A DNA stretch of 64,000 nt from Dehalococcoidia bacterium. GTDB lineage: Bacteria > Chloroflexota > Dehalococcoidia > Lucifugimonadales > UBA3495. Positions within the stretch are counted from its first letter, which is position 1, and the number at the start of each line of letters is the position of its first letter. Under the pieces are notes generated by a model. The model was given only the letters and a program-made list of their open reading frames with translations, ran no database searches and was not told the origin of the DNA. This document shows positions 3,532 through 41,289 of this stretch, piece after piece. The position numbers and the translations under genes were made by a program. The stretch is from assembly GCA_034420475.1 (NCBI GenBank), contig DAOULH010000042.1:9187-73186 (forward strand). The letters are read 5' to 3'.

Positions 3532-3554
3532 TAGAGCCGCTCAAGAACAGAATT

Positions 3555-3600
3555 ACGGCCAATATCGGCGAGGGGCCGCACGCCGGCAGTGGGGAGTGAG
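3555..3600. repeat. Fragment of the R1 element tail (GGCCAA..CGGCGAGGGGCCGCACGCCGGC..GAGTGAG)
   Basis: Near-identical to 4396-4437, the tail of R1 copy 2. Confidence 0.7.
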
Positions 3601-3643
3601 TTGACGGCCGCGCCAACCTCACGCGCGCCCGCTTTCGACTATG

Positions 3644-3750
3644 GTGTTGTCAGAATCAGGATTTGCGGGATTATGGGATTGGCAGGATTGGGTTGGTCGG
3701 CGCTGGCGCTGCGGCATCCTGGAAATCCTGCTTCTGACGATCCCCGGAGG
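3644..3750. repeat. R1 GGATT-rich palindromic element, copy 1 (short right arm)
   Basis: GTGTTGTCAGAATCAGGATTTGCGGGATTATGGGATTGGCAGGATTGGGTTGG...CATCCTGGAAATCCTGCTTCTGACGAT. Its 3-prime end supplies GGAGG and the ATG of the next gene. Confidence 0.9.
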
Positions 3751-3756
3751 ATAACC

Positions 3757-3981
3757 ATGAACCAACTGCTGCAAGAAGCCTTCAACCGGGCCGCCGCCCT
3801 GCCTGCCGAAGAACAGGACCGGCTCGCCAGATTCCTGCTGGCAGAGCTTGAGGCTGACCAAAAATGGGACCAGCTATTCGACCAGCCGGAATCGGATGAG
3901 TTGCTGAGCCGCCTCGCCATTGAAACTCTGGCCGACCACCGAGCCGGCGCCACCGCTCCATTGGACCCGGCCGACCTCTAG
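3757..3981 (+). CDS. Type II antitoxin-like protein (74 aa), copy 1
   Basis: GGAGG lies 7 nt upstream of the ATG. The stop is 2 nt before the toxin start. Small acidic helical protein (MNQLLQEAFNRAAALPAEEQDRLARFLLAELE...). A near-identical copy sits at 5837-6061. Confidence 0.65.
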   Translation: MNQLLQEAFNRAAALPAEEQDRLARFLLAELEADQKWDQLFDQPESDELLSRLAIETLADHRAGATAPLDPADL

Positions 3982-3983
3982 CC

Positions 3984-4253
3984 ATGCGTTCTTTCACGCG
4001 AGGCAGCTTCTGGAATGCCTACCGCCTGCTGCCCAACCACGTCAAACAGCAGGCCAGGAACGCGTACACCCTGTTCCAGGACAACCCGAGCCACCCGAGC
4101 CTGAATTTCAAGCGCGTCGGGCGCAGACATCCCGTTTACTCGGTGCGCGTCAGCGCCGGCTACCGCGCTCTTGGCGTGATGGAACAGAACGACATCATCT
4201 GGTTCTGGATCGGGTCACACCAAGAGTACGACCGACTACTCCGACGCAGTTAG
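3984..4253 (+). CDS. RelE/ParE-superfamily toxin (89 aa), copy 1, intact
   Basis: Tightly coupled to the upstream antitoxin. ...HPSLNFKRV...YSVRVSAGYRALGVMEQNDIIWFWIGSHQEYDRLL is the pattern seen in ParE/RelE-fold toxins. Confidence 0.7.
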   Translation: MRSFTRGSFWNAYRLLPNHVKQQARNAYTLFQDNPSHPSLNFKRVGRRHPVYSVRVSAGYRALGVMEQNDIIWFWIGSHQEYDRLLRRS

Positions 4254-4264
4254 CCCGACGGGGG

Positions 4265-4437
4265 GTGTTGTCAGAATCAGGATTTGCGGGATTACGGGAT
4301 TGGCAGGATTGGGTTGGTCGGCGCTGGCGCTGCGGCATCCTGAAAATCCGATAATCCTGGCAATCCAGGTTCTGACGATTTCCCGGCGGTATAAGGGCCA
4401 ACACCGGCGAGGGGCCGCACGCCGGCGAGGAGTGAGC
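4265..4437. repeat. R1 element, copy 2 (full length plus tail)
   Basis: The left arm has four GGATT units and the right arm has four AATCC units. The outer inverted repeat is GTCAGAA/TTCTGAC. The tail reads GGCCAACACCGGCGAGGGGCCGCACGCCGGCGAGGAGTGAGCC. Confidence 0.9.
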
Positions 4438-4637
4438 CGGCGGGTGCGCGCTGGATACTTTGAAACCGTTGACCTGAGGCACTTATTGTCGAGGGACACC
4501 TCAGCGAACCGCGTTTCGCCGATGGGTCCCTAAACATATTCTGGTCCATGGTCGAAGAACAGGCACAGTAACCCGTTGCGACCCGAATTGCCTTCAGATA
4601 CCCTGAAACCGACCCCCATCCTTCCCGGAGGAGCGAA

Positions 4638-4916
4638 ATGGGAAACCACCCGGCATCAGACTGCGACGCCATTGAGGATGCCCGCGAAACCATCGCCGGC
4701 ATTCGGGAACTCGAACAAGTCTCCGCTGCATTCAGGAAAGCATTGCAGACCTTGGACAATCCTCGCTCCGGCCTGTGGGCCGGCATGACCACCGACCTGG
4801 TAATGAGGTTCGCCCCGGACCAGGAAACCCTGGCCAGGGACCTTCGCGCCATCTCGCCCCAAGGGCCCGCCCGGACCAAGTTCCTGGACCCCCACCCCAA
4901 GGTCATGGTCCTATGA
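4638..4916 (+). CDS. Small protein (92 aa), upstream partner of the retropepsin-like protease, pair A
   Basis: GGAGG lies 6 nt upstream. Homologous to 6461-6733 (shared NPR..WAGM and LDPxP..M.L C-terminus). Its stop overlaps the protease start (ATGA). Confidence 0.6.
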   Translation: MGNHPASDCDAIEDARETIAGIRELEQVSAAFRKALQTLDNPRSGLWAGMTTDLVMRFAPDQETLARDLRAISPQGPARTKFLDPHPKVMVL

Positions 4917-5353
4917 TCCAAGGCTGGTTTGAAGACGCACAACCCACCATTATGGCGCGGGTCCTCATCCCCAGGCTCATGGTCAACGCCTACGCCACAT
5001 TCCTGGTCGACACCGGTTCCGACTCCACCGGAATCCATCCCGACCCCACCGTCTTTGCCGACCTGCCCTACGCGCAACTCGAAAACCCCTTCGTCATCAC
5101 CGGCGCAACCGGCAGCTCAAGGCGCTTCACCGAACCCGCGACCATCGCCATTGCCAGCGCCGACGGCGCCTCGGTTTACCACTACGACGTAGACATCTGG
5201 ATAGGGACGCCCCAAGATGTCCCTGCCGGCTTGCCCTGCATACTTGGTCAGGACATCCTCAAAGACCTGCGGATGACCCACGACCCCACGGACGACATCC
5301 TTACTTTCCATGTACGCAGAGCCGATCACACCATCACACTGTCCGGCCACTGA
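4913..5353 (+). CDS. Retropepsin-like (clan AA) aspartic protease, pair A
   Basis: FLVDTGSDST active-site motif and ILGQDIL flap-like motif. The ATG at 4913 overlaps the upstream stop. Confidence 0.75.
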   Translation: MIQGWFEDAQPTIMARVLIPRLMVNAYATFLVDTGSDSTGIHPDPTVFADLPYAQLENPFVITGATGSSRRFTEPATIAIASADGASVYHYDVDIWIGTPQDVPAGLPCILGQDILKDLRMTHDPTDDILTFHVRRADHTITLSGH

Positions 5354-5548
5354 CCGACCCGGCGCCAACCCCAGACACCAGACAAGCCGTTGCACATCGC
5401 GACGCTCACACCGGTCAGGTCGCGGTAGCGGCCCCCACGCCTCGCCGACTACACCGGAACGAGTGCGCCGGTCGGCATTGACACCACACCGACCACCCTC
5501 GCGTTCCACGTGAAGAGTGAGCGTAAAACAGTGGTTTTGGGTCTAACC

Positions 5549-5585
5549 TGCACAAATAATCGCCTCAAAACCGATTATTTGTGCA
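5549..5585. other. Perfect AT-rich hairpin (14-bp stems TGCACAAATAATCG / CGATTATTTGTGCA, 9-nt loop)
   Basis: Read directly. It sits in an AT-richer stretch between protease A and R1 copy 3. Confidence 0.8.
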
Positions 5586-5706
5586 AAGCTGACGAAACCC
5601 CACGGCATAATAGATGACATGATCCGCACGCTGGAATTCGCCCTGCGTTACTGAACCCAGATAACTGCGATCACGCCAACCTCGCGCGCGCCCGCTTGCA
5701 ACCGTA

Positions 5707-5830
5707 GTGTTGTCAGAATCAGGATTTGCGGGATTACGGGATTGGCAGGATTGGGTTGGTCGGCGCTGGCGCTGCGGCATCCTGAAAATCCGATAATCCT
5801 GGCCATCCTGGCGCTGACGATCCCCGGAGG
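5707..5830. repeat. R1 element, copy 3 (full length)
   Basis: Nearly identical to copy 2 over both arms. As in copy 1, it ends in CCCCGGAGGATAACC followed by ATG. Confidence 0.9.
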
Positions 5831-5836
5831 ATAACC

Positions 5837-6061
5837 ATGAACCAACTGCTTCAAGAAGCCTTCAACCGGGCCGCCGCCCTGCCTTCCGAAGAACAGGACC
5901 GGCTCGCCAGATTCTTGCTGGCAGAGCTTGAGGCTGACCAGAAATGGGACCAACTATTCGACCGGCCGGAATCAGATGAGTTGCTGAGCCGCCTCGCCAT
6001 TGAAACTTTGGCCGACCACCGAGCCGGCGCCAGTACTCCATTGGACCCGGCCGACCTCTAA
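5837..6061 (+). CDS. Type II antitoxin-like protein (74 aa), copy 2
   Basis: Differs from 3757-3981 at only a few residues (A17S, Q43R, AT-to-ST). Confidence 0.65.
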   Translation: MNQLLQEAFNRAAALPSEEQDRLARFLLAELEADQKWDQLFDRPESDELLSRLAIETLADHRAGASTPLDPADL

Positions 6062-6063
6062 CC

Positions 6064-6334
6064 ATGCGTTCTTTCACCCGCGGCGGCTTCTGGAATGCCT
6101 ACCGCCTGCTGCCCAACCACGTCAAACAGCAGGCCAGGAACGCGTACACCCTGTTTCAGGACAACCCGAGCCACCCGAGCCTGAATTTCAAACGCGTCGG
6201 CCGCAGACACCCCGTTTTACTCGGTGCGCGTCAGCGCCGGATACCGCGCTCTTGGCGTGATGGAACAGAACGACATCATCTGGTTCTGGATCGGGTCACA
6301 TCAAGAGTACGACCGGCTGCTCCGACGCGGTTAG
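6064..6334 (+). pseudogene. RelE/ParE-like toxin, copy 2, frameshifted
   Basis: CCCGTTTTACTCGG here against CCCGTTTACTCGG in copy 1 gives a +1 T insertion near 6215. The original stop TAG at 6332-6334 is then out of frame. Confidence 0.8.
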
Positions 6335-6347
6335 CCCGACAGCGGGG

Positions 6348-6414
6348 GTGTCGTCAGAATCAGGATTTGCGGGATTTTGGGATTGGCAGGATTGGGTTGG
6401 CCGGCGCTGCGGCA
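6348..6414. repeat. R1 element, copy 4 (left arm and loop only)
   Basis: GTGTCGTCAGAATCAGGATTTGCGGGATTTTGGGATTGGCAGGATTGGGTTGGCCGGCGCTGCGGCA, after which similarity ends. Confidence 0.85.
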
Positions 6415-6460
6415 GATGCACAACACATGGATTGAACAACTGACCAAGAACGGAGGCGGA

Positions 6461-6733
6461 ATGAGCGAACCCATTCCCACAACGCCCAAAGAAGCGGCGC
6501 GCATCTCTGCCCAAATGGCAGAATACGAAGCCGTCTCGACCTGCCTGCGGGCCGAAACCGAAGGGATGAGCCAACAGAATCCGCGCCAGTGGGCGGGCAT
6601 GAACTCCGACCGGGAGCTCACCCTGGCCGAAACGCTGCCGGAACTGCTGGCAAAACTCAGGCCCGGAGGCGACCGCCAACGCATGGTGGCAGTACTGTAC
6701 CTCGACCCCGACCCGCCGGAGATGATCCTGTGA
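6461..6733 (+). CDS. Small protein (90 aa), upstream partner of the retropepsin-like protease, pair B
   Basis: GGAGG lies 6 nt upstream of the ATG at 6461. Homolog of 4638-4916. Its stop overlaps the protease GTG (GTGA). Confidence 0.6.
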   Translation: MSEPIPTTPKEAARISAQMAEYEAVSTCLRAETEGMSQQNPRQWAGMNSDRELTLAETLPELLAKLRPGGDRQRMVAVLYLDPDPPEMIL

Positions 6734-7143
6734 TCGCCGGTTACTACCGCGACCGCCGGCCAATGATGAGAACCCACGTGACGTTGCCCAGACTGGATGC
6801 TGAAGGCCAAATAGACATCCTGGTCGATACCGGCGCGCAGGTCACGTGCATCCTCGGGCCGGACAGCGACGTACTGAACCTGCCTTATGAGTCCCTCGGA
6901 CAACCGGCGACGCTCCACGGCGTTGGCGGCGCCACCGTCATGTACCGAGAGCCGGCGCTCCTCACGTTCCGGGACTCAGAAAACGGCCGGATCTACCGGT
7001 ACCGCACCGAAGTCAGGATCGGACCCCGCGCCGGATCGGCCAACATTCTGCCGTCCCTGCTGGGCCAGGACATCCTCCAGCACTGGAGCCTGCTCCACGA
7101 ACCGGCTACCGGAAGACTTGAAGCCACGCCACTCACCGGCTGA
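6730..7143 (+). CDS. Retropepsin-like (clan AA) aspartic protease, pair B
   Basis: ILVDTGAQVT and LLGQDIL motifs. Paralog of 4913-5353. The GTG start overlaps the upstream stop. Confidence 0.7.
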   Translation: MIAGYYRDRRPMMRTHVTLPRLDAEGQIDILVDTGAQVTCILGPDSDVLNLPYESLGQPATLHGVGGATVMYREPALLTFRDSENGRIYRYRTEVRIGPRAGSANILPSLLGQDILQHWSLLHEPATGRLEATPLTG

Positions 7144-7167
7144 CGCTGCCCCAGGCTCCTGCGCCGT

Positions 7168-7276
7168 CCGCGTCAGCGCCGGCTACCGCGCTCTTGGCGT
7201 GATGGAACAGAACGACATCATCCGGTTCTGGATCGGGTCACATCAAGAGCACGACCGGCTGCTCCGACGCGGTTAG
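7168..7276 (+). pseudogene. 3-prime fragment of a third RelE/ParE-like toxin gene
   Basis: VRVSAGYRALGVMEQNDIIRFWIGSHQEHDRLLRRG* matches the C-terminal third of 3984-4253. No 5-prime part is present. Confidence 0.8.
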
Positions 7277-7288
7277 CCCGACAGCGGG

Positions 7289-7430
7289 GATGTTGTCAGA
7301 ATCAGGATTTGCGGGATTTTGGGATTGGCAGGATTGGGTTGGCCGGCGCTGACGCTGCGGCATCGTGAAAATCCGATAATCCTGGCAATCCTGGCGCTGA
7401 CGATTTCCCGGCGGGATAAAGGCCAACATC
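7289..7430. repeat. R1 element, copy 5 (full length)
   Basis: Both arms are present. The tail is diverged (GGGATAAAGGCCAACATCGCG). Confidence 0.9.
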
Positions 7431-7580
7431 GCGAGCTGGCTCACGCCGGTTTCCCCGGGCGGGGTTTTGCCAATGGCGCGCTTGACGGTAACCCGAAAGG
7501 GACGTTATGCTGATCCTGATTTGCCCCCCGTCCGCACGAGCTGGCTTGCGCCAGTTTCCCCGGCCGGGGTTTTTTTGATT

Positions 7581-8171
7581 ATGGACACCATAGTTTTCAT
7601 TGACGGCCAGAATCTCTACCACTCGGCAAAGGACGCTTGGCACGGCAACCCTATGGACAAAGCATCGTCATATGCTTGGCCTAGTTACGATGTCGAAAAA
7701 ATAGCCGACGCCCTGGTCAGCAGAGAGGCCGGCCGTGTTCTGTCCCAAATCCGCTTCTATACTGGCGTTCCGAGTCGCTCCGGTAACCCGTATTGGCACG
7801 ATTTTTGGTTAAATAAGCTCCGCTACTTGGCCCGCCGGGGCATCTACGTTTATCAGGGCAAGGTCAACCGGGGCGGCCAGGAAAAGGGCGTTGACGTCAG
7901 CCTGGCCCTGGACTTGGTGCAGGCTACTCACGAACGTCGCTACGACGTCGCCATCATCGTCAGCCAGGATTCCGACTTCAGCCCGGCGGTCAGCCTGGCC
8001 AAGCAGGTTGCCGCGTCGTAGAACCGGACGCTCACTTTTGAATGCGCGTTCCCCGTGGGTCCAGGCAGCGCTTTCCGCCGCGGCATCCACGGCACAAACT
8101 GGGTTAGGATAGACCGGGCGATGTACGACGCCTGCCTGGACCCCCGAGACTACCGCCCCGCCAGACGCTGA
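7581..8171 (+). pseudogene. NYN/LabA-like domain protein, C-terminal part disrupted
   Basis: MDTIVFIDGQNLYHS...EKGVDVSLALDL...IIVSQDSDFSP is NYN-like. A stop at 8019-8021 is followed, in shifted frames, by further coding-like sequence (FPVGPGS..., then IDRAMYDACLDPRDYRP*), consistent with a disrupted C-terminus. Confidence 0.6.
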
Positions 8172-8175
8172 CCCC

Positions 8176-8236
8176 AGCCCAATCCTGAAAATCCCGCTTC
8201 TGACGATTTCCCGGCGGGGTAACGGCCAACGTTGGC
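8176..8236. repeat. R1 element, copy 6 (right arm and tail only)
   Basis: CCCAATCCTGAAAATCCCGCTTCTGACGATTTCCCGGCGGGGTAACGGCCAACG. Confidence 0.8.
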
Positions 8237-8304
8237 GTCCCGGAGCAAGCCGCACTGGCGGAGCGGCCGTTGGCAGCGCAGGATAGTACAAGGACGACCG
8301 CCAA

Positions 8305-8808
8305 TTGATGCGCCATATCAACCACGTCTGGAAGCTGATCCCGGCCGCATCCGCCGGTCTGGCCATAGCGGCCATCGTCCGACTCAACCCGGCCAATATC
8401 AATCTCAAAAGCCCCGACTGGCGCTACACGGTCTCGTTTGCCCAGGACCATGCCTTTGAGTACACTGTGCTTGCCACCGCTATTATGGTGCTGGTCCACT
8501 GGTTCAAGGGCGACATTCACGCCGGGGCCGCTGCCATCGCCAATGCCGCCGCAAACGCGCTGGGCGTTCCGCCACTTTCGTATGCCTACGCGCTGCTCCT
8601 GGAGACGCTCAAAATGGTGTTGCAAAAAATCAAGCGAGACCTTTTCAACTCAATACGTTCCGACGGGCGCAAAGAGGGCCGCGAAGAGGGCCGCGAAGCC
8701 GGCATCAAGCATCTGCTCCGACAGCAAAACCCCCAAGCCGACGAAGCGGAGATTCAGCGCCGCTACGAAGAGGCCATCACCACCATGAGCGACGACCCAC
8801 GGACCTGA
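8305..8808 (+). CDS. Hypothetical membrane-associated protein (167 aa)
   Basis: ORF with hydrophobic segments and a charged C-terminus (GRKEGREEGREAG). No family recognised. Confidence 0.45.
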   Translation: MMRHINHVWKLIPAASAGLAIAAIVRLNPANINLKSPDWRYTVSFAQDHAFEYTVLATAIMVLVHWFKGDIHAGAAAIANAAANALGVPPLSYAYALLLETLKMVLQKIKRDLFNSIRSDGRKEGREEGREAGIKHLLRQQNPQADEAEIQRRYEEAITTMSDDPRT

Positions 8809-8911
8809 TCGAATGCTCGCGCCAGAAGCCTTCAACCGCGCCGCCGACCTGCCTTCTGAGGAAAGTGAGCAGCGCATCGACCCCCAATCCAGCAAATCGA
8901 GGAGCGATGCA

Positions 8912-9267
8912 ATGGGAACCGTAGTGGTCACGATAGGTATCGGAGACCCGCAGGGCCGGAGGTTCGAAGACATTGATGTAATTGTGGACACCGGCTCAAC
9001 CTTCACTGTAGTACCCAGAACCACATTGCAGCGGCTGGGAGTGCCGGTGGAACGCTCAGTGCAATCCGAACTGGCGGACGGAAGCAACGCGCCGGTGGAC
9101 ATCGGAAGGACCATGGCAGACTTGAAGGACAGCAATTCCCCACGCCGGTGATCTTCGCCGAAGCGGGCGAGCCCACTTTGCTTGGCGTGGTCACGCTGGA
9201 AGAGGCGCTGCTGGCCGTAGATCCCGTGGCCGGACGCCTCATACCTACAACCGTGCTGCGCCTTTAG
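8912..9267 (+). pseudogene. Retropepsin-like aspartic protease (short ~120-aa type), frameshifted
   Basis: GAGGAG lies 7 nt upstream of the ATG at 8912. VIVDTGSTFT motif. The frame breaks near 9125-9135. The next frame continues QQFPTPVIFAEAGEPTLLGVVTLEEALLAVDPVAGRLIP...*, matching the layout of the intact paralog at 43153-43518. 8813-8870 upstream is a remnant of the antitoxin 5-prime end (EAFNRAADLPSEE). Confidence 0.7.
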
Positions 9268-9297
9268 ATCAGGAAGCCGGAAGCCAAGAGGAACTGA

Positions 9298-9337
9298 GGA
9301 GATTGCCGAGAATGCTTGGCGGCATTCTCGCAATGAC
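9298..9337. repeat. Half-copy-like hairpin of the R2 family (GAGATTGCC...CTCGCAATGAC)
   Basis: GAGATTGCCGAGAATGCTTGGCGGCATTCTCGCAATGAC has the same terminal words as the right inner arm of R2. Confidence 0.6.
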
Positions 9338-9436
9338 GGTTTGAGGAAAGCGGCAGAGTGCGCGCGGCCGGCGCGGATGCAAACGGAATAGGCCCGTGCT
9401 AAACTTGGGCCAACTGCGCCCGCCGGAGGTAGAGGT

Positions 9437-11647
9437 ATGCTGCGCATCTACAACACCCTGACTAAGAACGTCGAGGAGATCCGGCCGATGACGCCCGGCA
9501 AGGTGTCCATGTACACTTGCGGGCCGACGGTGTACCGCTATGCGCACATCGGCAACCTGCGCACCTACCTGATGGCCGACTGGATCCGCCGCATCCTGGT
9601 GGCCGACGGCAACGAGGTTTACCACATCAAGAACATCACCGACGTGGGCCACATGCGGCAGGAACTGGCCGAAGCCGGCGGCGACAAGATGATCATGGCC
9701 GCGCTGGCCGAGGGCAAGTCCCTACAGGAAATCGGCGAGTTCTACGCGGACGTTTTCTGGCAGGACGAGGAGCGGATCAACATCCTGCCGGCCCACGTGT
9801 TTCCCTGGGCGTCGCACCACATTCCGGAAATGCTGGAGATGGTGGGCACGCTGATGAACAACGGTTCCGCTTACGAAGCGGGCGGCAACATCTACTTCAA
9901 CGTCAACAGTTATCCGGAGTACGGCAAGCTGTCCCGCAATTTCGGCGGCGACCTGCTGGAGGGAGTGCGCGCCGAGGCTGACCCGCTGAAGCGCGATCCG
10001 CGTGACTTCACCCTCTGGAAAGCGGCGGAGCCGGGTCGGGACGTGAAGTGGGACAGCCCCTGGGGCGAGGGTTTCCCCGGCTGGCACATTGAATGCTCGG
10101 CCATGGCGCACAAGTACCTGGGCGAGAAATTCGACATCCACACGGGCGGCGTCGACAACGTGTTCCCGCACCATGAGGACGAGATCGCGCAGAGCGAGGG
10201 GGCGTTCGGGCAGCAGCACGTCAACTACTGGGTGCACGGACAGCACTTGCTGGCGGACGGCGCCAAGATGGCGAAGTCGGCCGGGAACGTGTTCCTGATC
10301 GAGGACCTGGCGACGCGGGGGTTCGATCCTCTGGCATTCCGTTACCTGTGCATGACCGTGCGCTATCGGCATCGGATGAACTTCACCTTCACGTCGCTGC
10401 GGGCGGCGGAGAAGGCGCTGACCGGCCTGCGGAACCGCATCTGGGTGTGGCGGAATATGTCCGGCAATGGCGCGGGGCACCATGCCCTGAGCGCCGAGGG
10501 CCAGGAATGGAGCGGCAAGTTCTGGGACGCAGTGCACAACGACCTGGACCTGCCTACCGCGCTGGCAATCACCTGGGCCATGGCGCGGTCAGAACTGCCG
10601 GCGGCGGACAAGCTGGAACTGATGCTGGACTTTGACCGGGTATTCGGGCTCGACCTGGACCAGATTCCGGAGCGGTACGAGATCGGCACACAGAACAGCG
10701 CTGCGCTGGAGCGCCGGGCTACGTTGCGGCAACAGGCAGCGTATCGGGATGCCGACGCGCTGCGGTCGCAGATGGTGGAAGGCGGGATGGTGGTGCAGGA
10801 CACGGGCGTTGCGACGCTGGTGCGACCGCAGACACCGCTGGAACTGCAAGAGGCGCGGTGGCCTTCAGTGTCCGCTTCGCGGGAAGTGCCTTCCGTCCTG
10901 GACCAACCTGACCTCTACGACTTCACCTTCCTGGTGAATGCCTACGACTACGTGGACGACGTGCGCCGGTGCGTGGAGGCCGTGCTGCGGCACACCGGCG
11001 GAGCATCGGTTGAGATCATCGTGGTGGACAACGGGTCCACGGACGGCACGGCGGAGTATCTGGAAGAGGCACAGGCGGAGCACGCAAACGTTCGGGTCAT
11101 CCACTGTGACCACGTGGTGGGCGACGCCGCCGGCAAGAACATCGGGTTGAAGCAGGCGCGCGGCCGGTACATCGTATTGCTGGACGCCTCGACCGAGGTG
11201 GTCGGGGACATTTTGACTCCGGTGGCGGAACACCTGGCGGACAACAGCATCGGCGTGTTCGGCCCCTATGGGTTGACCACCGACGATATGCAGCACTTCC
11301 ACGAGGAAGTGGACCGGGGCGACGCCGACGCGATGCAGGCGTACTGCATGGCGTTCCGGCGGGCCGACCTGCCCAGCGTGGGGTTGATGCACGAGTCCTT
11401 CCGGTTCTACCGGAACCTGGACATCGACTACTGCTTCCAGTTCAAGAACGCCGGATACCGGGTAGTGTGCGACAGCAGCCTGCCGCTGGTGCGCCACGAG
11501 CATCGCCAGTGGGAAGAGTTGGAGGAGAACCAGCGCGACGAGCTGAGCCGGAAGAACTTCGGCCGGTTCCTGAAGCGGTGGGGCAACCGCCCGGACCTGC
11601 TGATCAACCCCAATGCGCGGGGGTTCGATACGGGTTTCCGGCACTGA
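9437..11647 (+). CDS. cysS: Cysteine--tRNA ligase fused to a C-terminal family-2 glycosyltransferase domain (736 aa)
   Basis: CGPTVY..AHIGN (HIGH-like), [21 protein letters not shown] and KMAKSAGN (KMSKS-like), with a full CysRS C-terminal region to about aa 470. Then [10 protein letters not shown]...[12 protein letters not shown]...LDAST, typical of GT2. Confidence 0.8.
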
Positions 11648-40875: not shown

Positions 40876-40974
40876 AGAGTTGTCGCTGATGCAAGTTCGC
40901 ACGGGCCAGATATTAGCCGTCTCACTTACAGCGCGAACCAGAACGACCCTGTTGAGCGCAGAGCAGAGTTCCGA

Positions 40975-41150
40975 GGCAACACCGGGCAGGTCTCCTGGCT
41001 CGCGGCTCTCAACCGAACCGACGCCTTCCCACAATCCGCGTTGGGCGGATGGCAGTGGCCAATCGTCGGCCGGTTCCCCGCTTACAGTGGCGCAACCGCG
41101 GCGGATTCGCACCGCCTTCCCAATTAAGCCCATGGGTTTGAATAGCGCCC
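40975..41150 (-). promoter_or_regulatory. Cobalamin (B12) riboswitch
   Basis: The minus strand reads ...GGGAAGGCGGTGCGAATCCGCCGCGGTTGCGCCACTGTAAGCGGGG...GGCCACTGCC...GGGAAGGCG...GAGCCAGGAGACCTGCCCGG. The GGTGxxAAxCC, GCCACTG and AGCCAGGAGACCTGCC (B12 box) consensus blocks appear in the correct order. Confidence 0.9.
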
Positions 41151-41289
41151 GGTGTCCGGTTTTCGAATGTTAATGCGCGGACGAGCCGCGCAGCCAATGT
41201 AGCCGGGATGCCTGGGCTTGTCAACGGTCGGATCAAGGGGCATGTTACCCTGTCAATGGAATCAACCGCATACCAAGGACGTAATACGA

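What the first reader, a model, noticed from the sequence alone, without database searches (positions are those of the whole stretch)
4265..4437. R1 element architecture: four GGATT units facing four AATCC units around a GC-rich core
The left arm is GTCAGAA TCAGGATT TGCGGGATT ACGGGATT GGCAGGATT, giving GGATT every 8-9 nt. The core is GGGTTGGTCGGCGCTGGCGCTGCGGC. The right arm is ATCCTG AAAATCC GATAATCC TGGCAATCC AGG TTCTGAC. As RNA this would fold into a long interrupted stem of GGATT/AATCC helices. As DNA it is an array of eight pentamer sites in inverted orientation. In copies 1 and 3 the sequence just 3-prime (CTGACGATCCCCGGAGGATAACC ATG) supplies the SD and start of the antitoxin. In copies 2, 5 and 6 the homologous stretch has diverged to ...CCCGGCGG.ATAA.GGCCAAC. 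There are six copies in 5 kb, two of them half elements broken exactly at the core. It could be a multi-site operator for TA autoregulation, a structured 5-prime UTR or a recombination site.
Basis: seen in the sequence. Interest (0 to 1): 0.55.

Follow-up and report, generated by a model that had tools for sequence, protein, structure and literature searches.

The report
Dispersed hairpin repeat, not TA operator
The "R1" element is a real 110-base hairpin-forming repeat, but it belongs to a large family scattered between all kinds of genes in many bacterial phyla; full-size relatives of it wrap around a small uncharacterised nuclease-like gene (GxxExxY), so it looks like selfish DNA, not a switch for the neighbouring toxin-antitoxin genes.

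Summary
Window 3647-8230 holds six co-oriented copies of an imperfect palindrome: GTCAGAA, four GGATT units every 8-9 nt, a GC-rich core, and the inverted arm. Three copies are complete, one has a shortened right arm, and two are halves.

The link to the toxin-antitoxin (TA) cassettes is not supported. The same arms occur in more than 117 stretches of Dehalococcoidia, Caldilineaceae, SAR202, Bacteroidota, Verrucomicrobiota, Poribacteria and a cyanobacterium. They appear as full hairpins, solo arms and tandem arrays, in either orientation, usually just after a stop codon. In the close relative JAJDTP01 they sit next to ilvC, gcvT and gcvH. No Rfam, plasmid, viral-contig or literature match was found.

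The new result is that this design brackets GxxExxY genes (PDDEXK_3, TIGR04256). The design is a terminal GTC[T/A]GAA, then periodic xGATT pentamers, then an inverted copy. In 80 loci fetched by protein alone, the terminal motif lies upstream in 52/77 and downstream in 41/68. The background is 8/319 windows.

R1 is best read as an ORF-less member of this hairpin-ended cassette family. Its copies mark duplication and indel junctions in a variable island between a methyltransferase gene and cysS. How the family moves is inferred, not shown.

The parts
3647..3740 (+). R1 copy 1: left arm (GTCAGAA at 3649 plus four GGATT), core, and a right arm shortened to ATCCTGGAAATCCTGCTTCTGAC. Its 3' tail GATCCCCGGAGGATAACC supplies the SD for the antitoxin ATG at 3757.
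   Evidence: (D1)
4268..4378 (+). R1 copy 2, the finding: a complete hairpin element that begins 15 nt after the ParE-like stop codon.
4377..4402 (+). Conserved 3' tail GATTTCCCGGCGGTATAAGGGCCAAC. It is shared with copies 5 and 6 and with L081 and L059.
   Evidence: (D4)
5710..5820 (+). R1 copy 3: a complete hairpin, 97% identical to copy 2. Its tail gives the SD for the second antitoxin (ATG 5837).
6351..6414 (+). R1 copy 4: left arm plus core (6 nt shorter), ending …GCGGCA|GATG. The same junction is seen in L110 and L085, upstream of Asp-protease-type cassettes.
7166..7289 (+). A 124-nt copy of the 3' end of the ParE-like gene, 94% identical to 6224-6347, lying directly in front of copy 5. 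It is a gene-end duplication attached to the repeat.
   Evidence: (D2)
7293..7427 (+). R1 copy 5: complete hairpin (7293-7403) plus tail GATTTCCCGGCGGGATAAAGGCCAAC.
8174..8230 (+). R1 copy 6: right arm only (CCAGCCC AATCCTG AAAATCCC GCTTCTGAC) plus tail to GGCCAAC. It lies directly after the NYN gene and is conserved in L081 and L059. The indel junction with L081 follows at 8236/8237.
   Evidence: (I12-I18)
3757..4253 (+). Cassette between copies 1 and 2: a 74-aa ORF with no family hit, plus an 89-aa ParE-like toxin.
4638..5353 (+). Cassette between copies 2 and 3: a 92-aa ORF plus a retropepsin-like Asp-protease ORF.
5837..6348 (+). Second copy of the TA cassette, 93% identical to the first. 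Its ParE-like gene is frameshifted.
   Evidence: (D3)
6461..7143 (+). Cassette after half-copy 4: a 90-aa ORF plus an Asp-protease-like ORF (RVP, E = 6e-6).
7581..8170 (+). NYN-domain gene between copy 5 and copy 6. It is interrupted by a stop at 8019-8021, whereas the L081 orthologue is intact. The layout is [full hairpin] gene [right arm].

Best explanation
R1 is an ORF-less copy of a widespread family of hairpin-forming (cruciform-capable) selfish repeats.

Shown: the unit is a terminal heptamer GTC[A/T]GAA, followed by three to five pentamers (GGATT here; TGATT, GAATT or CGATT in other lineages) spaced 8-9 nt. A variable centre follows, and then the same arm inverted.

Shown: members are scattered in intergenic DNA of many phyla, mostly within a few tens of bases after a stop codon and in either orientation. 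They occur as full hairpins, solo arms and tandem arrays.

Shown: the same arms bracket, or lie directly beside, the 125-aa GxxExxY gene (PD-(D/E)XK nuclease superfamily). This is also true in Chloroflexota.

Inferred: the GxxExxY-bearing ~0.5-kb cassette is the autonomous form, and R1 is its miniature derivative. The periodic pentamers would be binding sites, and the terminal heptamers the processing sites, for that nuclease acting in trans on DNA arms or an extruded hairpin.

For the window, partly shown: the copies are the repeated joints of a variable island between a methyltransferase/HNH pair and cysS. Recombination and duplication at the joints shuffle small TA-like cassettes, leaving half-copies and gene-end duplications.

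Inferred: when transcribed, a copy forms a ~45-bp interrupted stem. In copies 1 and 3 the 3' tail happens to provide the ribosome-binding site of the next gene.
For: Family membership and dispersal:
25 of them are in one 3.27-Mb Dehalococcoidia chromosome.
- The arm profile finds 49 full hairpins, 86 single solo arms and 33 solo-arm arrays.
- Neighbouring genes are a housekeeping mix.
- Copies lie a median of 2-36 nt from a gene's 3' end and show no orientation bias.
- Arms pair in 96.3% of cells. There is real covariation at col 10-106 (UA 13 / GC 12), 0/500 shuffles reach the observed score, and slid controls collapse to 23-54% paired.

Link to GxxExxY:
- GGATT arms flank GxxExxY genes in Chitinophagaceae (L022), Caldilineaceae (L072, beside a 15-unit hairpin array), Dolichospermum (L117), Dehalococcoidia OY282565.1 (L199) and L200. 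The protein family was confirmed by Pfam and NCBIfam.
- In 80 metagenomic loci chosen by protein only, the terminal motif is upstream in 52/77, downstream in 41/68 and on both sides in 32/65. Background is 8/319 windows. The motif starts a median of 70 nt before the ATG and ends 60 nt after the stop.
- The two arms share the majority pentamer type in 32/35 elements, against 22.9 expected.
- ORF-less hairpins sit beside ORF-bearing ones.

Rearrangement role:
- Orthologous loci L110 and L085 lack W 3717-8865. L081 lacks W 8237-9367. L059 carries the same cassettes in another order.
- Gene-end duplications abut the repeats in the window (7166-7289), in L200, and in L131, L137 and L172.
Against: - No GxxExxY gene lies in the 64-kb window, and the rest of the source genome could not be read.
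- No clean filled-versus-empty site pair was found.
- No consistent target-site duplication was found for ORF-less hairpins, so mobility is not demonstrated.
- Only about 10% of the protein-ascertained GxxExxY loci carry the GGATT subtype itself. The rest share the design, not the sequence.
- The association could run the other way, with GxxExxY genes settling in or beside pre-existing hairpins.
- No nuclease activity, DNA binding or oligomeric state is known for GxxExxY. The structure model is poor (pLDDT 60), and its PDB matches (Cas4, lambda exonuclease, Hjc and others) are weak, with E of 1.8e-3 or higher.
- Solo arms with G-rich tails in tandem arrays are not explained by a hairpin-based mechanism.
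Confidence: 0.6

Rival explanations
1. R1 is mainly a cis-acting RNA hairpin. Transcribed at the 3' end of genes or between cistrons, the ~45-bp interrupted stem would stabilise or terminate the upstream mRNA, or be cut by RNase III, as the stems of 23S rRNA intervening sequences are. The copies would persist because of that function.
For: Copies lie a median of 2-36 nt after stop codons and far from the next start. The stem is strong (z = -5) and well kept, with 96.3% of cells paired and compensatory change at col 10-106. In IVS elements, a stem enclosing a small ORF is excised by RNase III (PMC4990558). The cassette layout 'arm - small ORF - inverted arm' is the same.
Against: Either orientation occurs about equally, and both strands fold about equally well: means of -55.2 and -54.1 kcal/mol over 48 copies. 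A pure structure would not keep the pentamer sequence nearly invariant across phyla. Solo arms and solo-arm arrays are more numerous than hairpins and cannot form the stem. No U-tract follows the stem. No Rfam family matches, even at E < 10. This reading is compatible with the best explanation rather than exclusive of it.
Confidence: 0.17
2. The array is a degenerate chromosomal integron lacking its integrase (a CALIN), and R1 copies are its attC sites. Cassettes would be captured and excised by an IntI encoded elsewhere, acting on the folded single strand.
For: Six co-oriented ~110-nt imperfect palindromes separate small promoter-less cassettes, several of them TA-like, all on one strand. Cassette content differs between orthologous loci. 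A second Dehalococcoidia locus (L116) has HigA-like, VapBC and MNT-HEPN cassettes, each followed by an arm. AAC/GTT-containing motifs (GGCCAAC|GTTGGC) sit at one indel junction.
Against: The ends are GTCWGAA/TTCWGAC, not RYYYAAC/GTTRRRY, and GTT is present in only one of the window copies. The sequence, not just the structure, is conserved across phyla, unlike attC. Most copies elsewhere are singletons beside housekeeping genes, or ORF-free tandem arrays. Orientation relative to genes is random. No integrase appears among 105 neighbouring ORFs.
Confidence: 0.06
3. R1 is a multi-site operator. The 74-aa antitoxin, alone or with the ParE-like toxin, would bind the eight pentamers cooperatively and autoregulate the TA operon.
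For: Copies 1 and 3 lie immediately upstream of the antitoxin start and carry its SD. Copy 1 contains a weak sigma-70-like match, TTGTCA-16-GATTAT. Ribbon-helix-helix-type regulators are known to bind tandem short repeats; this point is general knowledge and was not tested here.
Against: The element is not specific to TA loci. Copies 2, 4 and 5 lie downstream of the toxin gene, and copy 6 follows an NYN gene. The promoter-like match is absent from the other copies and is not above chance (3 found versus 1.6 expected). The 74-aa protein matches no Pfam or NCBIfam family.
Confidence: 0.03

Closest known systems
REP / BIME / REPIN elements mobilised by RAYT transposases (E. coli, Pseudomonas; GTAG- and CGTC-tagged REPs, PMC3733652)
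   Same: Dispersed, extragenic, palindromic and multi-copy. Often located just after genes. Found as singles, inverted doublets and clusters. Hotspots of rearrangement.
   Different: REP units are 20-40 nt with a GTAG or CGTC tag and are lineage-specific. R1 arms are ~45 nt, built from a terminal heptamer plus periodic pentamers, and are conserved across phyla. No RAYT or IS200-like gene was seen next to any copy. The recurrent protein partner is a GxxExxY PD-(D/E)XK protein instead.
Bacterial MITEs such as Correia/NEMIS (Neisseria), ERIC/IRU, RUP, Nezha
   Same: Size of about 100-170 bp, long terminal inverted repeats, intergenic location, co-transcription with neighbours, and ORF-less derivatives of a longer element.
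   Different: No consistent target-site duplication. The longer relatives carry no known transposase, only a 125-aa nuclease-fold protein. Solo arms and tandem arrays are common. Some insertions are flanked by 56-125-nt gene-end duplications instead of short TSDs.
23S rRNA intervening sequences carrying the S23p four-helix-bundle ORF (Leptospira, Coxiella; PMC4990558)
   Same: A small selfish cassette: complementary termini form a long stem that encloses one ~120-aa ORF of unknown function. Short direct repeats lie upstream of the ORF.
   Different: Not located in rRNA. The ORF belongs to a different family (PDDEXK_3, not 23S_rRNA_IVP). The arms have a periodic pentamer design. RNase III processing is untested here.
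Integron attC sites / CALIN arrays
   Same: Imperfect palindromes of 60-140 nt separating co-oriented, promoter-less small cassettes that include TA modules. Cassette content varies between relatives.
   Different: No R''/R' consensus and no integrase nearby. The conservation is at sequence level. Singletons are dispersed genome-wide, and orientation relative to genes is random.

Membership tests
GTCWGAA-(xGATT)n hairpin repeats that bracket GxxExxY genes (family defined here) | Terminal heptamer GTC[A/T]GAA at the outer end of each arm | tested here: met
   GTCAGAA at 3649, 4270, 5712, 6353 and 7295. TTCTGAC or GCTGAC at 3732, 4370, 5813, 7396 and 8198. The same motif flanks GxxExxY genes in 52/77 and 41/68 loci, against 8/319 background windows.
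GTCWGAA-(xGATT)n hairpin repeats that bracket GxxExxY genes (family defined here) | Three or more identical pentamers spaced 8-9 nt in each arm, of the same type in both arms | tested here: met
   GGATT at 4280, 4289, 4297 and 4306; AATCC at 4345, 4353 and 4362. Arm-type concordance is 32/35 in GxxExxY loci.
GTCWGAA-(xGATT)n hairpin repeats that bracket GxxExxY genes (family defined here) | Profile match to arms that directly flank a GxxExxY gene | tested here: met
   The arm HMM scores window copies at 51 bits. The same HMM hits arms adjoining GxxExxY genes in L022, L072, L117, L142, L146, L152, L160, L166, L175 and L187. L199 and L200 were read directly.
GTCWGAA-(xGATT)n hairpin repeats that bracket GxxExxY genes (family defined here) | Encloses or adjoins a GxxExxY (PDDEXK_3 / TIGR04256) ORF | tested here: not met
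   No GxxExxY-like ORF in any frame of the 64-kb window (phmmer, E up to 10). The window copies are therefore ORF-less members.
REP/REPIN (RAYT-associated) | 20-40-nt palindromic unit with an unpaired GTAG or CGTC tag | tested here: not met
   Arms are ~45 nt, the whole element ~110 nt, and there is no GTAG. CGTC precedes AGAA in only some copies (TTGTC in the window).
REP/REPIN (RAYT-associated) | A RAYT (IS200-like Y1 transposase) gene flanked by the repeats | tested here: inconclusive
   None among 105 ORFs next to arms or in the ORF clusters of 118 loci. Whole genomes were not searched.
MITE | Terminal inverted repeats and a size of 50-500 bp | tested here: met
   Arms of ~45 nt, 96.3% paired, with element lengths of 87-170 nt.
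MITE | Short target-site duplication of fixed length | tested here: not met
   Flanks of 47 full copies show no consistent direct repeat. The flanks often extend the palindrome instead.
MITE | A parent element with the same ends that encodes a transposase | tested here: not met
   The longer elements with the same ends encode only GxxExxY, a PD-(D/E)XK fold protein that is not a known transposase family.
Integron attC | R'' RYYYAAC and R' GTTRRRY boxes at the ends | tested here: not met
   The ends are (T)GTCAGAA and TTCTGAC(GA). GTT occurs at the 3' end in copy 2 only.
Integron attC | Integron integrase nearby or in the genome | tested here: not met
   No XerD-like hit in the six-frame translation of the 64 kb. 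The rest of the genome is not available.
Integron attC | Sites confined to cassette arrays, with fixed polarity relative to the cassettes | tested here: not met
   Singletons lie beside ilvC, gcvT, gcvH and others. Orientation counts are 11 vs 7 and 18 vs 20.
23S rRNA IVS-type element | Located in helix 25 or helix 45 of 23S rRNA and excised by RNase III | not testable with these tools
   No rRNA gene lies at any copy (Rfam scan). Processing needs RNA data.
TA operator | Sites specific to the promoter region of the TA operon they regulate | tested here: not met
   Copies lie downstream of toxin genes and beside unrelated genes in related genomes.
Any Rfam family | Covariance-model match | tested here: not met
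   No hit at gathering thresholds in the window, and none at E up to 10 in 3550-8350 apart from a chance snoRNA match.

The most novel reading that the evidence does not exclude
The GTCWGAA-(xGATT)n arms and the 125-aa GxxExxY protein together form a previously undescribed class of minimal mobile element of about 0.5 kb. Its only protein is a PD-(D/E)XK nuclease. That nuclease would recognise the periodic pentamers and process the hairpin or cruciform at the terminal heptamers. R1-type ORF-less hairpins would be its miniature derivatives. Insertion, or repair after cleavage, would generate the 30-125-nt gene-end duplications seen beside the repeats. This would give a function to the very large, uncharacterised TIGR04256/PDDEXK_3 family and would explain its scattering through restriction-modification and CRISPR loci.
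Probability: 0.3. Interest if true: 0.8.

Novelty: new variant of a known kind. Interest (0 to 1): 0.55.

Why it matters
For this window, the result removes a false lead. The hairpins are not a regulatory device of the toxin-antitoxin genes. They are generic selfish repeats that structure a fast-changing island.

More broadly, the same arm design is shared by bacteria from at least six phyla, and it wraps the GxxExxY gene. That family has thousands of members: all but two of the 8000 scored candidates reached E of 1e-10 or better. It appears in only three papers of the searched library, with no known function.

If the link is causal, it defines a very small mobile element built on a PD-(D/E)XK nuclease and a cruciform-forming repeat. 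It would also provide sequence signatures (terminal heptamer, pentamer period) for annotating thousands of intergenic repeats in Chloroflexota, Bacteroidota and cyanobacterial genomes. These repeats are currently unannotated, and they create spurious ORFs and assembly or duplication artefacts.

Tried and rejected
- Rfam at gathering thresholds and at E up to 10: no family.
- Viral-contig scan with the arm pattern: 0 hits.
- Plasmid BLAST: no match.
- Literature searches for the arm sequences, GxxExxY/PDDEXK_3, MITEs in these phyla, and IVS proteins near restriction systems: nothing describes the element.
- Recurrent neighbouring transposase or integrase: none in the ORF clustering or the Pfam census.
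- Other cargo families inside arm pairs: none found beyond GxxExxY.
- Integron reading: rejected on end motifs, dispersal, orientation and absence of a recombinase.
- Promoter reading: a single weak match in copy 1, not above chance.
- Strand choice from folding energies: no asymmetry once ascertainment is allowed for.
- Target-site duplication for ORF-less hairpins: none consistent.
- Sequence search of the PDB with a GxxExxY profile: no relative.
- Upstream context of the window: the look-up returned only a 1-kb contig.
Full report
**1. The observation**

Window 3.6-8.2 kb contains six co-oriented copies of one element.

Copy 2, the finding, runs from 4268 to 4378:
- Left arm: TT GTCAGAA TC AGGATT TGC GGGATT AC GGGATT GGC AGGATT.
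- Core: a 26-nt GC-rich centre.
- Right arm: ATCCTG AA AATCC GAT AATCC TGGC AATCC AGG TTCTGAC GA.
- Tail: GATTTCCCGGCGGTATAAGGGCCAAC, running to 4402.

A 17-mer from the left arm occurs five times, against 0.2 expected. An arm profile finds nothing else in the 64 kb. The copy folds into a long interrupted stem (z = -5.05 on the + strand, -3.8 on the - strand).

The state of each copy:

| Copy | Coordinates | State |
|---|---|---|
| 1 | 3647-3740 | right arm shortened to two units |
| 2 | 4268-4378 | complete |
| 3 | 5710-5820 | complete |
| 4 | 6351-6414 | left arm plus core only |
| 5 | 7293-7403 | complete |
| 6 | 8174-8206 | last two right-arm units only |

**2. Surroundings in the window**

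All genes in this region are on the + strand. The order is as follows:
- A large N6-adenine methyltransferase with weak BREX/MADS-like matches, then an HNH protein.
- Copy 1.
- 74-aa ORF plus ParE-like toxin.
- Copy 2.
- 92-aa ORF plus retropepsin-like ORF.
- Copy 3.
- A second 74-aa/ParE pair, 93% identical to the first, with a frameshifted ParE.
- Half-copy 4.
- 90-aa ORF plus retropepsin-like ORF.
- A 124-nt copy of the ParE 3' end.
- Copy 5.
- An NYN gene with a premature stop.
- Right-arm copy 6.
- A 167-aa ORF, an antitoxin 5' fragment fused to another retropepsin-like ORF, then cysS.

No tyrosine-recombinase-like and no GxxExxY-like ORF is present in any frame of the 64 kb.

**3. The element is a generic, cross-phylum dispersed repeat**

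Most are in Dehalococcoidia, Caldilineaceae, SAR202 and other Chloroflexota. Others are in Chitinophagaceae, Cytophagales, Sphingobacteriales, Balneolaceae, Verrucomicrobiota, Poribacteria and Dolichospermum. One 3.27-Mb Dehalococcoidia chromosome contributes 25 stretches.

*Forms.* An arm profile run over these loci finds 322 arms. They make up 49 full hairpins, 86 single solo arms and 33 tandem arrays of solo arms or hairpins, with periods of 84, 129, 144 and about 200 nt.

*Position and orientation.* With a crude GC-frame gene caller, orientation relative to co-directional neighbours is near random (full copies 11 vs 7, solo arms 18 vs 20). Copies lie a median of 2-36 nt from a gene's 3' end and hundreds of nt from the next start.

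*Neighbours.* Pfam on 105 neighbouring ORFs gives a housekeeping mix with no transposase or integrase. In JAJDTP01 the methyltransferase-cysS locus is 88% identical to the window (L110). In that genome, full copies lie beside ilvC, gcvT, gcvH, an MFS transporter, an SBP_bac_5 protein, DUF3090 and DUF3500.

*Negative searches.* Nothing matches in Rfam even at E up to 10, in viral contigs, in plasmids, or in the paper library searched with the arm sequences.

**4. Structure versus sequence**

An alignment of 36 full copies (A2) gives a consensus of helices made of the terminal heptamer and the GGATT/AATCC units. The helices are separated by non-complementary 2-4-nt spacers.
- 96.3% of cells pair. 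Slid controls fall to 23-54%.
- Most pairs never vary, so they say nothing about structure.
- Compensatory change is concentrated at col 10-106 (UA 13, GC 12, 7 unpaired) and col 6-110 (AU 29, UA 3).
- The orthologous copies L044 and L078 differ by exactly such a double change.
- Both strands fold equally well on average.

Complementarity of the two arms is therefore maintained. What is conserved across phyla, however, is the pentamer sequence and its 8-9-nt period. This points to recognition by a protein and not to a free-standing RNA fold. That last step is inference.

**5. The link to GxxExxY genes**

*First cases.* In three loci from three phyla the arms closely bracket a small ORF:
- L022, Chitinophagaceae, between cas4 and cas1.
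- L072, Caldilineaceae, next to a 15-unit hairpin array.
- L117, Dolichospermum.

The ORF is PDDEXK_3 / TIGR04256 'GxxExxY protein'.

*Protein-ascertained test.* I fetched 80 metagenomic loci using the protein only. The arms there follow the same design: GTCTGAAC, then TGATT (most often), GGATT, GAATT or CGATT every 8-9 nt, and the inverted copy ending GTTCAGAC after the gene.

| Position of the terminal motif | Loci with the motif |
|---|---|
| Within 260 nt upstream of the gene | 52/77 |
| Within 260 nt downstream, inverted | 41/68 |
| Both sides | 32/65 |
| Background windows of the same loci | 8/319 |

The upstream motif starts a median of 70 nt before the ATG, and the downstream motif ends a median of 60 nt after the stop.

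*Further support.*
- The R1-type (GGATT) profile itself hits arms adjoining the gene in about 10% of these loci.
- The two arms share their majority pentamer type in 32/35 elements, against 22.9 expected.
- ORF-less hairpins often sit beside the ORF-bearing unit.
- In Dehalococcoidia OY282565.1, a genome that also carries R1-type copies (L024, L114), a GxxExxY gene has two full GGATT hairpins upstream and one at its 3' end.
- In L200 an Eco57I-like methyltransferase is followed by four hairpin units and then a GxxExxY gene. Each unit is followed by a copy of the last ~32 nt of the methyltransferase gene.

*The protein family.* It is very large: 7998 of the 8000 scored candidates reach E of 1e-10 or better. 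It is essentially unstudied. Three papers mention the name, and the PD-(D/E)XK survey lists its function as unknown. A profile search finds no solved relative. An AlphaFold model from close homologues is poor (pLDDT 60) and gives only weak matches, all to PD-(D/E)XK nucleases.

**6. What the copies do in the window**

Orthologous loci show that the region between the methyltransferase and cysS is a variable cassette island:
- L110 and L085 join 'leader + left arm + core…GCGGCA|GATG' directly to the last retropepsin-like gene, so W 3717-8865 is absent.
- L081 has copy 5, the NYN gene, copy 6 and then cysS, so W 8237-9367 is absent. The junction lies in GGCCAACGTTGGC.
- L059 carries the same cassettes in another order.

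The 'half element' junction of copy 4 is shared with L110 and L085. It is therefore inherited with the Asp-protease-type cassette and is not an independent break.

The 197-nt unit 'ParE 3' end + left arm + core' flanks the 90-aa/Asp-protease module on both sides (6224-6420 and 7166-7362, 94% identical). Similar gene-end duplications of 56-62 nt abut GxxExxY elements in L131 (hsdM 5' end), L137 and L172, and occur in L200.

The repeats thus coincide with local duplication and recombination. Whether they cause it was not tested. Possible routes are homologous exchange between copies, hairpin-induced replication errors, or an element-encoded reaction.

**7. Mechanism, with its status**

*Shown.* The architecture, the dispersal, the preference for gene 3' ends, the maintained arm complementarity, the statistical and physical association with GxxExxY genes, and the presence of copies at rearrangement joints.

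*Inferred.*
- The GxxExxY cassette is the autonomous form and R1 its ORF-less derivative.
- The nuclease-fold protein recognises the periodic pentamers and acts at the terminal heptamers on a hairpin or cruciform.
- The transcribed stems behave like IVS stems.

*Against or missing.* No GxxExxY gene in the window, no filled/empty site pair, no consistent TSD, no biochemical data, and an unexplained abundance of solo arms with G-rich tails.

**8. Comparison with known systems**

R1 works like a REP/REPIN or a MITE: a selfish extragenic palindrome. Its ORF-bearing relatives look like 23S rRNA IVS cassettes, in which a stem encloses one small ORF. R1 fails the defining features of each:
- No GTAG/CGTC-tagged 20-40-nt unit and no RAYT.
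- No TSD and no transposase-bearing parent.
- Not in rRNA and not an S23p ORF.
- No attC boxes, no integrase and no fixed polarity.

**9. Verdict**

The TA-operator and 5'-UTR readings are rejected. The recombination-site reading holds only in a loose sense.

The element is an ordinary kind of thing, a dispersed palindromic repeat, in an unusual and apparently undescribed family. The family is distinguished by its cross-phylum sequence conservation, its pentamer periodicity and its tight association with the uncharacterised GxxExxY nuclease-fold gene.

Noticed in passing
window 40968-41167 (-): Cobalamin riboswitch, Rfam RF00174, 99.4 bits. It is the only Rfam hit in the window.
   Followed up: no
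window 6064-6435 and 7581-8170: The ParE-like gene of the second TA cassette is frameshifted, so its ORF reads through into R1 copy 4. The NYN gene has a premature TAG at 8019-8021, while the L081 orthologue is intact at 198 aa. The island carries decaying genes.
   Followed up: partly
window 8813-8863: A fragment of the antitoxin gene's 5' end (86% identical to 3771-3813) is fused in frame to the last retropepsin-like ORF. This is a recombination scar.
   Followed up: partly
window 8224-8236; L081 3917-3930: The 1131-bp indel between the window and L081 begins inside the palindrome GGCCAAC|GTTGGC(C). The motif GGCCAAC also ends the conserved tail of copies 2, 5 and 6, and recurs at 9404.
   Followed up: partly
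L200 1280-2540: After an Eco57I-like methyltransferase gene come four tandem hairpin units, then a GxxExxY gene and another arm array. Each hairpin unit is followed by a copy of the last ~32 nt of the methyltransferase gene. R1-type arms also adjoin methyltransferase genes in the window and in L047.
   Followed up: partly
L022 5458-7600; L119: A GxxExxY cassette with its arms sits between cas4 and cas1 in two Bacteroidota loci. Other cassettes sit at hsdS/hsdM/hsdR and RhuM-like gene borders of type I restriction loci; those gene identities were read from the flanking sequences and were not run through Pfam.
   Followed up: no
L080, L097, L016, L104, L071 (Dehalococcoidia OZ220464.1): Tandem arrays of the left arm alone, each followed by a G-rich tail, with periods of 84, 144, ~130 and ~200 nt and no inverted partner. 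The hairpin model does not explain them.
   Followed up: no
L116 1100-3700: In another Dehalococcoidia genome three TA-type cassettes (HigA-like, VapBC, MNT-HEPN) are each followed by a solo arm in the opposite polarity to the window. This shows that small-cassette arrays with these repeats recur.
   Followed up: partly
window 7432-7468 and 7537-7573: A 37-nt sequence with a GC-rich stem and a T run (…CCCCGGGCGGGGTTTT) is duplicated 105 nt apart, between copy 5 and the NYN gene. The simple terminator scan did not call it.
   Followed up: no
window 9437-11647 (+): The 736-aa cysS ORF appears to carry a C-terminal glycosyltransferase-like extension (…[12 protein letters not shown]…). This was read from the translation only and was not checked against Pfam.
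   Followed up: no
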